Of a stretch of 64,000 nucleotides of DNA, positions 40,587 through 42,373 are shown piece by piece. Source of the DNA: Octopus vulgaris (Eukaryota). Position 1 is the first letter of the stretch. Every line of letters begins with the position of its first letter. The DNA lies in assembly GCA_951406725.2 (NCBI GenBank), contig OX597827.1:58776001-58840000 (forward strand), in the 5' to 3' direction. Position numbers: made by a program.

Positions 40587-40649
<63 letters not shown>

Positions 40650-41161
40650 ACTTCATTATAAAGTCATCGTATACAACACTATTCATAGAGAATGGAAACT
40701 ATTGCTTGCAGTTCAAAACATAATTATAGACGATGCTATACATGCAAATATCACAAAAAAAAACACAGTTTAAATACTTACTGGAGTAGGGACTGTGCCT
40801 GTTAACTTTTTGCAAAGCTAGACAAAAAAATAAGAGTTTTCACATTAATGTTACTGTGTAGATGCATGCAATATTTTAAAGGTAGTATAAACAAAGTTTT
40901 TACGCAAACGTATGAATGCATATACATGCATTCATACGCACATGATGTTTTTGCTTCATTTTTAACACGTAATACTGAAATAGTGGAGAAGATATGATAT
41001 TGCTGTGGGCTCGCCCTAGGCAAGAAGTTAAAAATTTTTTTGTCTATGACACTACATGAACCCTAAGTAAGGCATGTGTAAAATTTGAATGAAATTGGTT
41101 GTGTAGTTCTCAAGTTTTAGGGATTCACACAGACAGACAGACAGACACACATTCTCAGTTT

Positions 41162-41196
<35 letters not shown>

Positions 41197-42373
41197 ATAC
41201 TAGCAGTATCGTCCGGCGTTGCTCGGGTTTGTAAGGGAAATAACTATAAAGCATTTTTAGAGAGTTATAGCCAAAAAATAGCAAAAAAATGGAAAAAAAA
41301 TTATGATAAATTTTTTTTGAGAGTTAAAAAAGGTCGAGTTGTGTCCCCTAGACAGTCTGTGGTTTGTGTTTCTGATTCTCGACCCCATGTCGAATTTATC
41401 GATTTTTTTCAGAACTGGGGGAACTTTTCAAAATTTTCGCTGCGTTAGTTTTGAATTATGACATTGGGCTATGTGTGTGTCAAGTTTCATCAGAATCGGT
41501 TGAAAGCCGTGGTCAGGGTGAGGGTACAACCAAACAGACACACAGAAACACACACAGACAAACTGCCGTTTATATAGAGAGAGATAAAGACTTCATTATA
41601 AAGTCATCGTATACAACACTGCACGTAGAGAATGGAAACTATTGCATGCAGTTCAAAACATAATTATAGACGATACTATACATAAAAATAACACAAAAAA
41701 CACAGTTCAAATACTTACTCCGGCAAGACTATTTCCTGTTAAATCTTCGCAAACCTAGACAAAAGAAAAAATTAACAGCTTTCACATTAATGTCGTTGTG
41801 TAGATGCATACAATATTTCAAAGGTAGTATAAACAAAGTTTTTACGCGAGCATATGAATGCATATACATACATGCATTCATACGCACATGAATACACACA
41901 GACACATATATAATTTATATACATAATAAAAAAAAGAATAAATGCGCCCTTTTAAAGCCTAGGCAGGTTCAAGGGTCCGGTTTCCTGGCTTCAATGGCGT
42001 ATGTGTTCCCCAGCTGGACGGGACGCCAGTCCATCGCAGCGTTACTCATTTTTGCCAGCTGAGTGGACTGGAACAACGTGAAATGAAGTGTTTTGCTCAA
42101 GAACTCAACGCGTCGCCCGGTCCAGGAATCGAAACCATAATCTTACGATCATGATGCTGACACCCTAACCACTAAGCCACGCACTTCCACACACATATAT
42201 ATATATATATACAGGAGTGGCTGTGTGGTAAGTAGCTTGCTAACCAACCACATGGTTACGGGTTCAGTCCCACTGTGTGGCATCTTGGGCAAGTGTCTTC
42301 TGCTATAGCCCCGGGCCGACCAATGCCTTGTGTGTGGAATTTGGTAGACGGAAACTGGAAGAAGCCTGTCGTA

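What the first reader, a model, noticed from the sequence alone, without database searches (positions are those of the whole stretch)
40646..41890. Tandem-duplicated, rapidly diverged Cys microexons could make a switchable surface loop on a secreted ferritin
Seen: a ~300-bp segment occurs twice (40646-~40945 and 41585-~41890). Each copy holds a 36-nt phase-0 exon with intact tctag and gtaagt sites, encoding VCEDLTGNSLAG and LCKKLTGTVPTP. The exons differ at 15/36 nt ungapped and 8/12 aa. The ~130 nt of intron downstream of the donor differ at only about 10 positions plus an indel. Length, frame, the Cys and LTG are kept, while charge flips (ED versus KK). Known: this position is the BC loop on the outside of the ferritin 24-mer, where gastropod yolk ferritin has a Cys-containing insertion. 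Inference: diversifying selection on a cassette or mutually exclusive exon pair. All four splice choices are in frame, so acidic and basic isoforms could differ in disulfide partners or receptor binding and co-assemble in one cage.
Basis: partly seen in the sequence, partly recalled or inferred. Interest (0 to 1): 0.85.

Follow-up and report, generated by a model that had tools for sequence, protein, structure and literature searches.

The report
Duplicated loop microexons in secreted ferritin
A ferritin gene that carries a secretion signal has two copies of a tiny 12-codon exon inside the intron that splits its outer surface loop, and the exon bodies have changed about five times faster than the DNA around them, but whether the cell uses them together or as a switch cannot be told from DNA alone.

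Summary
On the minus strand, a ~305-bp unit occurs twice (41891..41587 and 40945..40647). Each copy holds a 36-nt phase-0 exon candidate with a pyrimidine-rich TCTAG acceptor and a GTAAGTAT donor.

- **Divergence:** the flanks differ at 20 of 260 aligned sites (7.7%). The exon bodies differ at 15 of 36 (Fisher P 6.5e-7), and 11 of those lie in the last 16 nt.
- **Host gene:** an intact ferritin gene of about 22 kb. It has a signal-peptide exon, no IRE match, and one lone Cys after the signal peptide.
- **Position:** both microexons lie in the intron that splits the B-C loop. Gastropod yolk ferritin has a 42-aa insertion in that loop, and a chiton secreted-type ferritin has one of about 40 aa in its putative loop region.

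I read them as real coding microexons made by a recent tandem duplication that was later split by a SINE-like insertion.

The "switch" is not shown. Nothing in the DNA enforces exclusivity, both exons have strong splice sites, and constitutive inclusion of both (a 24-aa insert) is an equal rival. "Diversifying selection" is also unproven: pN/pS is about 1.1, and synonymous sites are as diverged as the others. No transcript or ortholog data were reachable. The joined protein was neither searched nor folded.

The parts
52884..52977 (-). Exon 1. ATG in an A(-3)/G(+4) context, peptide MDNNSKIMRRTISILLVFNLWISLSAANSYC plus 1 nt, donor GTAAGT. It has a signal-peptide-like n/h/c layout. The only Cys outside the microexons follows the likely cleavage site.
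   Evidence: It ends in phase 1 and fits the next exon, which starts with 2 nt of a split codon.
49217..49293 (-). Helix-A exon (GKNDVHRLNHQIKRELEASIFYMAA after the split codon). Acceptor T10CAG, donor GTAAGT.
   Evidence: Too short for a database match: 0 Pfam families and 0 PDB hits at E<=10. Assigned from a ferritin helix-A motif that I recalled.
43529..43675 (-). Helix-B exon, 49 aa, with the EEKGH ferroxidase motif. It ends ...KTPNVT, an N-x-T sequon, in phase 0. Donor GTAGGT.
   Evidence: 205 PDB sequences at E<=0.01; the 60 listed are ferritins, best 2.4e-9; PF00210, 30.3 bits against a cutoff of 24.5.
41587..41891 (-). Duplicated unit A (upstream copy in gene orientation).
41719..41754 (-). 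Microexon A, 36 nt, phase 0, VCEDLTGNSLAG (acidic).
41165..41582 (-). SINE-like dispersed repeat inserted directly after unit A. It is followed by a further ~210 bp of unmatched spacer before unit B.
   Evidence: 93.8% identity over 421 columns to window 29835..29418. The alignment shows the homology starting right at the end of unit A.
40647..40945 (-). Duplicated unit B (downstream copy).
40782..40817 (-). Microexon B, 36 nt, phase 0, LCKKLTGTVPTP (basic, Pro-rich).
37375..37479 (-). Helix-C exon, 35 aa ([35 protein letters not shown]), phase 0 at both ends. Acceptor TTTTTATATAG, donor GTAAGT.
   Evidence: No database match on its own: one search gave 4 PDB hits at E<=10, none a ferritin, and one search gave 0 Pfam families. 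Assigned by its position between matched exons and by the LEK motif, which I recalled.
31007..31147 (-). Last coding exon (helices D-E, 46 aa) with its TAA stop.
   Evidence: 214 PDB sequences at E<=1; the 60 listed are ferritins, best 1.6e-10.
41844..41889 (-). Stable hairpin at the 5' edge of unit A. Its twin sits at 40902..40943 in unit B.
   Evidence: -23.2 and -21.2 kcal/mol, z -4.1 and -4.5. In each case 1 of 200 shuffles folded as well.
40437..40450 (-). 14-nt site perfectly complementary to GTAAAAACTTTGTT. That sequence occurs upstream of both microexons (41845..41832 and 40903..40890). Weak candidate for a competing RNA pairing.
   Evidence: The duplex energy of -17.8 kcal/mol is not outstanding against other windows of the same intron, which reach -23.2.

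Best explanation
**What it is.** These are two real coding microexons of a secreted, H-type-like ferritin gene. The gene runs from 52977 to 31007 on the minus strand. Both microexons lie in the intron that interrupts the B-C surface loop.

**Origin.** One microexon with about 135 nt of intron on each side was duplicated in tandem. A SINE-like element then inserted between the copies. Since the duplication the flanks have drifted 7.7% apart. The exon bodies have been remodelled to 42% difference. The first seven codons keep x-Cys-x-x-Leu-Thr-Gly, with Glu-Asp replaced by Lys-Lys. The last 16 nt are essentially unrelated, yet length, frame and both splice sites are intact.

**Function (inferred).**
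- The exons supply the B-C-loop insertion that marks molluscan secreted or yolk ferritins. It sits on the outside of the 24-mer, next to an N-glycosylation sequon.
- Each exon brings one Cys. That Cys can bond the single Cys near the mature N-terminus, or a neighbouring subunit.

**Usage (inferred).** Both exons have consensus-strength sites and nothing forces a choice. I expect both to be recognised by default, giving a 24-aa two-module insert. Skipping of one or the other is a possible but unenforced source of isoforms.
For: **Gene context**
- The helix-B and last exons match ferritins.
- Exon phases fit along the whole model.
- There is a signal-peptide-like exon 1.
- Rfam gave 0 matches at gathering score over the window. 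It gave no IRE among 7 weak hits at E<=5 in 52850..53900.

**Exon reality**
- In the strict scan of 128 kb, 2 of 2 in-frame candidates are these exons. Only 3 other candidates appear at any length from 12 to 75 nt.
- A relaxed scan of the 6049-nt intron gave 3 candidates: these two and a weak AAG-acceptor one at 39335..39231.
- Frame 0, the frame the neighbouring exons require, is the only frame open in both copies.
- The divergence peak is bounded by the splice sites. The 10 nt before each acceptor and the first 10 nt of each intron are identical.
- Fisher P is 6.5e-7, and the scan statistic was reached in 1 of 20000 permutations.

**Need for an insert**
- Between the two PDB anchor points, canonical ferritins have 54 residues (6lij, 5wpn, 7dlb, 1mfr).
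- This gene has 47 without a microexon, 59 with one, and 71 with both.

**Cysteines**
- In the exon translations, Cys occurs only in exon 1 and in the two microexons.

**Relatives (passages read)**
- A 42-aa surface insertion in the B-C loop of snail yolk ferritin, proposed as a ligand for an oocyte receptor (PMC12867339).
- Signal peptide and no IRE in snail yolk ferritin (PMC10799875 section 11).
- An insertion of about 40 aa in the putative loop region of a chiton secreted-type ferritin (PMC6351634).
- N-terminal Cys disulfides in insect secreted ferritin (PMC5751084).

**Origin**
- The unit has exactly two copies in the window.
- The spacer carries a dispersed repeat that is 93.8% identical to a copy at 29.4-29.8 kb.
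Against: - No transcript, peptide or orthologous locus was available, so splicing of either exon is inferred from DNA alone.
- The two copies are not independent witnesses. Their splice motifs and open frame are partly inherited from a recent duplication.
- The helix-A and helix-C exons have no database match on their own.
- The insert would be 12 or 24 aa, shorter than the ~40 aa of the named relatives.
- The ferroxidase-type residues look retained. The chiton paper lists their replacement as a trait of secreted-type ferritins.
- pN/pS of about 1.1 on 36 nt gives no proof of selection on the protein.
- The signal peptide was judged by a hydrophobicity scan and by eye, not by a trained predictor.
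- With both exons included, the mature chain has three Cys, an odd number.
Confidence: 0.5

Rival explanations
1. The two microexons are used alternatively, either mutually exclusively or by tissue. This gives an acidic and a basic loop isoform of one secreted ferritin, kept different by diversifying selection.
For: - Same length and phase, and a shared Cys-x-x-Leu-Thr-Gly start, suggest two versions of one structural slot.
- With exactly one microexon the mature chain has two Cys, an even number suited to one disulfide (exon translations).
- All 4 differences in the first 20 nt change the residue, and 3 of them turn Glu-Asp into Lys-Lys.
- A 14-nt sequence upstream of both exons is complementary to one site downstream of exon B. 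That is the layout of a docking and selector pair.
Against: - No enforcing mechanism is visible. The intron between the exons is 901 nt, both exons have the same GT-AG site type, and 36 nt keeps the frame, so double inclusion is not punished.
- The 14-bp pairing is AU-rich, at -17.8 kcal/mol, and other windows of the same intron give stronger duplexes.
- Both exons have strong sites (13 and 12 pyrimidines of 14, and GTAAGTAT). That is more typical of constitutive exons.
- pN/pS is about 1.1.
- Relatives carry long inserts of about 40 aa.
Confidence: 0.25
2. Neither segment is an exon. A piece of intron that happens to carry splice-like motifs was duplicated, and the 36-nt core is a local mutation hot spot or was overwritten by a complex repair event.
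For: - The last 16 nt are at near-random identity (5 of 16 match), and synonymous sites are as diverged as non-synonymous ones (pS 0.39, pN 0.43). That fits a single block replacement better than stepwise selection.
- No transcript evidence exists.
- A random 36-nt frame is open about 56% of the time (my arithmetic, (61/64)^12).
Against: - Such strong-site in-frame candidates are otherwise absent from 128 kb.
- A replacement in non-coding DNA has no reason to keep the exact length, to keep the one frame that matches the neighbouring exons, or to stop exactly at both splice motifs.
- The gene is 7 residues short between the PDB anchors without an insert.
- It would also have an unpaired Cys.
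Confidence: 0.14
3. Only one copy is a working exon. The other is a recent, not yet decayed duplicate that the spliceosome skips or that is on its way to loss.
For: - The duplication is young (7.7% flank divergence), so an unused copy could still look intact.
- Fast change in the working copy alone could account for the excess divergence.
Against: - Both copies keep the acceptor, the donor, the frame and the Cys-x-x-Leu-Thr-Gly start.
- With sites this strong, skipping one copy would need an active silencer.
Confidence: 0.08
4. Assembly artefact: two haplotypes of one locus laid down in tandem.
For: False tandem duplicates are known from assemblies of heterozygous invertebrates (general knowledge, no call).
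Against: - The window has no N.
- The copies are separated by about 640 bp that includes a distinct dispersed repeat.
- The flanks differ by 7.7% with several indels. That is far above usual allelic divergence.
Confidence: 0.03

Closest known systems
Gastropod yolk ferritin (Lymnaea stagnalis, Biomphalaria glabrata)
   Same: Signal peptide, no IRE, and an extra surface segment in the B-C loop (PMC10799875 section 11; PMC12867339 passage).
   Different: The insert there is 42 aa and is described from cDNA. Here it would be 12 or 24 aa, encoded by separate duplicated microexons. I could not see whether the snail insert has its own exons, contains Cys or is internally repeated, because figures and supplements are not held. 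Orthology was not tested.
Chiton secreted-type ferritin (Cryptochiton stelleri Cs90734)
   Same: An insertion in the putative loop region, listed by the authors as a common trait of secreted-type ferritins (PMC6351634 passage).
   Different: About 40 aa, metal-binding residues replaced, and no signal sequence found. Here the EE-x-x-H and EEQ motifs are kept (alignments) and a signal peptide is present.
Insect secreted ferritins (Trichoplusia ni heavy- and light-chain homologues)
   Same: A secreted cage whose subunits are stapled by intra- and inter-subunit disulfides that use N-terminal Cys (PMC5751084 passages; abstract of PMC4783870 in the listing).
   Different: Two separate genes for two chains. 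There is no report of loop microexons in the passages I read. A disulfide from the N-terminal Cys to the loop is only inferred here.
Tandemly duplicated, mutually exclusive exons (Dscam and 14-3-3 zeta type; recalled, no call)
   Same: Adjacent homologous exons of equal length and phase. One downstream site is complementary to a sequence upstream of each copy.
   Different: In those cases the exons are conserved and the introns diverge, and exclusivity is enforced. Here the introns are alike, the exons are not, and no enforcing feature was found.
Accelerated exon evolution in venom and toxin gene families (conotoxins, snake phospholipase A2; recalled, no call)
   Same: Coding segments of paralogous copies differ far more than the adjoining introns.
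   Different: Those are whole-gene paralogues with dN/dS above 1 over long alignments. Here it is a 36-nt exon pair inside one iron-storage gene, with pN/pS about 1.1.

Membership tests
Eukaryotic ferritin (Pfam PF00210) | Sequence match to the ferritin-like domain | tested here: met
   1 of 4 exons scanned passes the Pfam cutoff (helix-B exon, 30.3 bits against 24.5). The helix-B and last exons hit PDB ferritins at 2.4e-9 and 1.6e-10. The helix-A and helix-C exons have no match on their own.
Eukaryotic ferritin (Pfam PF00210) | H-type ferroxidase-centre residues | tested here: inconclusive
   E-E-x-x-H in helix B and Q in E-E-Q of helix D are identical to the PDB ferritins in the printed alignments. 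The Glu and Tyr of helix A and the Glu of helix C were placed by eye from motifs I recalled.
Molluscan secreted / yolk ferritin | N-terminal signal peptide | tested here: met
   Exon 1 has a basic n-region, a 13-residue hydrophobic core and small residues before AANSYC. No trained predictor was available.
Molluscan secreted / yolk ferritin | No iron-responsive element in the 5' UTR | tested here: met
   0 Rfam matches at gathering score over 64 kb. No IRE family among 7 weak matches at E<=5 in 52850..53900. The transcription start is unknown.
Molluscan secreted / yolk ferritin | Insertion of about 40 aa in the B-C loop | tested here: inconclusive
   The site is right. Against the 54 residues of canonical ferritins between the PDB anchors, this gene has 47, 59 or 71 with 0, 1 or 2 microexons. 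The insert exists only if the microexons are spliced in, and it is shorter than 40 aa.
Molluscan secreted / yolk ferritin | Groups with secreted ferritins in a tree | not testable with these tools
   The protein databases were closed, and genome contigs holds only bacteria and archaea.
Mutually exclusive exon pair | Adjacent homologous exons of the same length and phase | tested here: met
Mutually exclusive exon pair | A mechanism that forbids double inclusion (steric, U2/U12, frame with NMD, or competing RNA pairing) | tested here: not met
   The intron is 901 nt, the GT-AG motifs are the same, and 36 nt is divisible by 3. The 14-nt complementarity is not above the intron background in duplex energy.
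Mutually exclusive exon pair | Transcripts carry one exon or the other | not testable with these tools
   No transcript data.
Exons under diversifying selection | Exon divergence above neutral (intron) divergence | tested here: met
   15 of 36 against 20 of 260, Fisher 6.5e-7. 1 of 20000 permutations reached the observed cluster.
Exons under diversifying selection | Non-synonymous rate above synonymous rate | tested here: inconclusive
   Nd 11.5 over N 27 against Sd 3.5 over S 9, so pN 0.43 and pS 0.39.

The most novel reading that the evidence does not exclude
One secreted ferritin gene makes cages whose outer B-C loops come in an acidic and a basic, Pro-rich version by regulated choice between two recently duplicated microexons. 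The exon bodies are driven apart by selection on a receptor- or partner-binding surface, as in toxin and immune genes. The isoforms co-assemble or are addressed to different tissues, for example to oocyte uptake against haemolymph iron transport.
Probability: 0.2. Interest if true: 0.75.

Novelty: new variant of a known kind. Interest (0 to 1): 0.45.

Why it matters
Secreted ferritins of molluscs are known to carry an unexplained insertion in the surface B-C loop, which has been proposed as the handle for receptor-mediated uptake into oocytes.

This locus suggests how such an insert can arise and change. A microexon is born inside the old loop intron, is copied in tandem, and is then rewritten much faster than its surroundings without touching the iron-storing core.

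If transcripts confirm it, the locus gives a compact natural example of modular surface engineering of a protein cage. It also gives a testable pair of loop variants of opposite charge, each with one cysteine. If both exons are simply constitutive, it is an ordinary, though neat, case of exon duplication lengthening a loop.

Tried and rejected
- **Third copy or TE origin of the unit:** blastn against the window found none.
- **Donor for the divergent 3' halves:** searching 19-nt patterns with up to 3 mismatches found only the sites themselves, 1 match each.
- **Micro-inversion or a compensating frameshift:** a gapped alignment still leaves 11 mismatches in 35 aligned columns. By eye, the reverse complement does not match.
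- **Other hidden exons in the loop intron:** only one weak 105-nt candidate, at 39335..39231.
- **Docking and selector pairing:** a 14-nt complement exists, but it is not outstanding in energy.
- **Single-exon database matches:** the helix-A and helix-C exons gave none.
- **Nine repeat-like ORFs scanned against Pfam:** 0 families.
- **tRNA-derived SINE test:** 0 tRNA genes.
- **Literature:**
  - No paper holds any of four exon peptides.
  - Of the papers pairing 'yolk ferritin' with 'cephalopod' or 'octopus' (2 and 5 listed), I read passages of two (PMC6351634, PMC13026281). Neither describes a cephalopod secreted ferritin there, and the other titles concern other molluscs.
  - Among 8 papers with 'secreted ferritin' and 'alternative splicing', the one with the topic in its title concerns regulation of ferritin subunit levels in an insect, going by its abstract. 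I opened only PMC6351634 from that list, and that was for other terms.
- **Not done:**
  - So there is no model of the loop or of Cys distances.
  - Genome contigs was not used because it holds no animals.
  - Paper supplements were closed. The alignments and trees in the supplements of PMC6351634 and PMC10799875 may show where the inserts sit and whether they hold Cys.
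Full report
**Observation**

Read on the minus strand, the region holds two copies of a unit of about 305 bp, at 41891..41587 (A) and 40945..40647 (B).

- The repeat finder reports the two flanks as separate two-copy families, at 92% over 114 nt and 88% over 112 nt.
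- MAFFT aligns the whole unit.
- blastn of each unit against the window finds exactly one partner (85.1% over 309 columns) and no third copy.

In the middle of each unit lies a 36-nt stretch between a pyrimidine-rich ...TTTTGTCTAG and GTAAGTAT. A is 41754..41719 and reads VCEDLTGNSLAG. B is 40817..40782 and reads LCKKLTGTVPTP.

Aligned region by region:

| Region | Mismatches / aligned sites | Gaps |
|---|---|---|
| Upstream flank | 10 / 128 | 3 gap events |
| Exon | 15 / 36 | none (ungapped) |
| Downstream flank | 10 / 132 | one 3-nt indel |

- Exon against flanks gives Fisher P = 6.5e-7.
- When the 35 mismatches were scattered at random over 296 columns, 1 of 20000 trials had any 36-nt window with 15 or more.
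- The excess is uneven: 4 mismatches in the first 20 nt and 11 in the last 16.

**The host gene**

A motif scan of all six frames, followed by reading the hits, gives one gene on the minus strand:

| Exon | Coordinates | Content |
|---|---|---|
| Exon 1 | 52977..52884 | Signal peptide |
| Helix A | 49293..49217 | |
| Helix B | 43675..43529 | |
| Microexon A | 41754..41719 | |
| Microexon B | 40817..40782 | |
| Helix C | 37479..37375 | |
| Last exon | 31147..31010 | Followed by TAA |

- All exons have GT-AG introns, and the phases fit throughout (1, then 0, 0, 0, 0, 0).
- The helix-B exon passes the Pfam ferritin cutoff (30.3 bits against 24.5). It also hits PDB ferritins (best 2.4e-9; 205 sequences at E<=0.01).
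- The last exon hits PDB ferritins at 1.6e-10.
- The 25-aa and 35-aa exons have no match on their own. I assigned them by position and by motifs that I recalled.
- Exon 1 starts in a good initiation context and reads MDNNSKIMRRTISILLVFNLWISLSAANSYC. That is the layout of a signal peptide followed by a Cys.
- Rfam finds nothing at gathering score in the window. It finds no IRE even at E<=5 around the start.

So "secreted ferritin without IRE" is supported. I did not identify the organism.

**Position in the protein**

I used four PDB ferritins as rulers (6lij, 5wpn, 7dlb, 1mfr). The last aligned residue of the helix-B exon and the first aligned residue of the last exon are 54 residues apart in each of them. 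This gene has 47 residues there without a microexon, 59 with one and 71 with both.

From human H-chain numbering that I recalled (His65, Glu107, Gln141), about 4 of the 7 missing residues fall in the B-C loop and about 3 in the C-D turn.

The intron holding the microexons therefore cuts the B-C loop. The helix-B exon ends in Asn-Val-Thr, a glycosylation sequon, right at the junction.

**Are they exons?**

For:
- With strict criteria, the only in-frame microexon candidates on either strand of the 64-kb window are these two. Only three other candidates exist at any length from 12 to 75 nt.
- A relaxed scan of the 6049-nt intron adds one weak candidate.
- The frame demanded by the neighbouring exons is the only frame open in both copies.
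- The divergence peak stops exactly at the conserved splice motifs.
- Outside the microexons, the exon translations contain a single Cys, the one after the signal peptide. Each microexon brings one more.

Against:
- There is no transcript or peptide evidence.
- The two copies share their signals by descent, so they count as roughly one witness.

I put the chance that at least one is spliced into mRNA near 0.8.

**Origin**

The spacer between the units begins, directly after unit A, with an element of about 420 bp. It is 93.8% identical to a copy at 29835..29418. The remaining ~210 bp has no partner in the window.

The simplest history is a tandem duplication of about 305 bp that was later split by insertion. 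Both flanks show the same divergence (7.8% and 7.6%). That favours one duplication date over separate gene-conversion tracts.

**What drove the exon difference?**

Nei-Gojobori counts give pN 0.43 and pS 0.39. Both lie far above the 7.7% of the flanks, so the data do not show selection on residues specifically.

- The first seven codons look constrained. Cys, Leu, Thr and Gly are kept, with identical codons for the first three. The four changes there all alter residues, and three of them turn Glu-Asp into Lys-Lys.
- The last 16 nt match at 5 positions, which is about random. A gapped alignment does not rescue them, and no donor sequence lies in the window.
- Either many substitutions were fixed quickly, or one event replaced the block and only an in-frame product survived. 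Both readings need the segment to be read as code.

**How are they used?**

- Nothing enforces a choice. The exons are 901 nt apart, they share the same site type, and 36 nt keeps the frame.
- A 14-nt sequence upstream of both exons is perfectly complementary to 40450..40437 downstream of exon B. The duplex is AU-rich (-17.8 kcal/mol) and weaker than many chance duplexes in the same intron.
- Each unit also starts with a stable hairpin.
- Strong sites and the ~40-aa inserts of relatives favour inclusion of both.
- Equal length, the shared anchor motif and an even Cys count favour one at a time.

I cannot decide this from DNA. I give the default-inclusion or cassette reading 0.5 and the regulated switch 0.25.

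**Comparison with what is known**

- Snail yolk ferritin has a signal peptide, no IRE and a 42-aa insertion (PMC10799875 section 11).
- A review places that insertion in the surface-exposed B-C loop and reports the idea that it is a ligand for oocyte uptake (PMC12867339 passage).
- A chiton study lists a loop insertion of about 40 aa among features it calls common in secreted-type ferritins (PMC6351634 passage).
- Insect secreted ferritins are stapled by N-terminal Cys disulfides (PMC5751084 passages).
- I found no paper with these peptides.
- The two papers I opened from the 'yolk ferritin' searches for cephalopods and octopus say nothing of a cephalopod secreted ferritin in the passages I read. 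The rest I judged by title only.
- Nothing in the listing concerns splicing in the loop.

**Left out**

- The spliced protein was not assembled, searched or folded.
- The protein databases and paper supplements were closed.
- No animal genome collection was on hand.

**Verdict**

This is a real and statistically clear duplicated microexon pair, in the loop intron of a secreted ferritin, with strikingly fast exon change. The switch idea is open, not shown. I rate it a new variant of known kinds (loop-insert secreted ferritins, tandem exon duplication), with interest 0.45.

Noticed in passing
window 52885-52887 (minus): The Cys codon just after the predicted signal-peptide cleavage site is the only Cys in the exon translations outside the two microexons. 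It is a natural disulfide partner for the loop Cys.
   Followed up: partly
window 43529-43537 (minus): The helix-B exon ends in Asn-Val-Thr, an N-glycosylation sequon. It sits exactly at the junction where the microexons would join.
   Followed up: no
window 41844-41889 and 40902-40943 (minus): Each duplicated unit begins with a near-perfect hairpin with a stem of about 16-20 bp (-23.2 and -21.2 kcal/mol, z about -4). It may mark the duplication breakpoint or be a splicing element.
   Followed up: partly
window 40437-40450 vs 41832-41845 and 40890-40903: A 14-nt perfect complementarity links one downstream intron site to a sequence upstream of both microexons. It is not outstanding in duplex energy.
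   Followed up: partly
window 41165-41582 and 29418-29835: Two copies, 93.8% identical, of a SINE-like element of about 420 bp with a microsatellite tail. One copy splits the microexon duplication.
   Followed up: partly
window 38370-38730; also 45208-45395, 5811-5997, 41950-42048, 28180-28271, 60659-60768: A second dispersed repeat family at 82-89% identity. One fragment lies just upstream of unit A. ARAGORN finds no tRNA in the window.
   Followed up: partly
window 43842-44200: A long AT-rich trinucleotide-type tract stays open in several frames as runs of Ile, Asn, Leu, Tyr and His. It lies in the intron between the helix-A and helix-B exons.
   Followed up: no
window 34495-36272 (minus) and 44663-47560 (plus): Clusters of medium-sized open frames inside ferritin introns look like decayed mobile-element genes. 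Of the 9 ORFs scanned, 7 come from these clusters, and all 9 gave 0 Pfam families at E<=0.01.
   Followed up: partly
window 39231-39335 (minus): A weak third in-frame exon candidate (105 nt, AAG acceptor, GTGAGT donor). By eye it looks repeat-like, though I ran no repeat search on it. It is probably not an exon.
   Followed up: no
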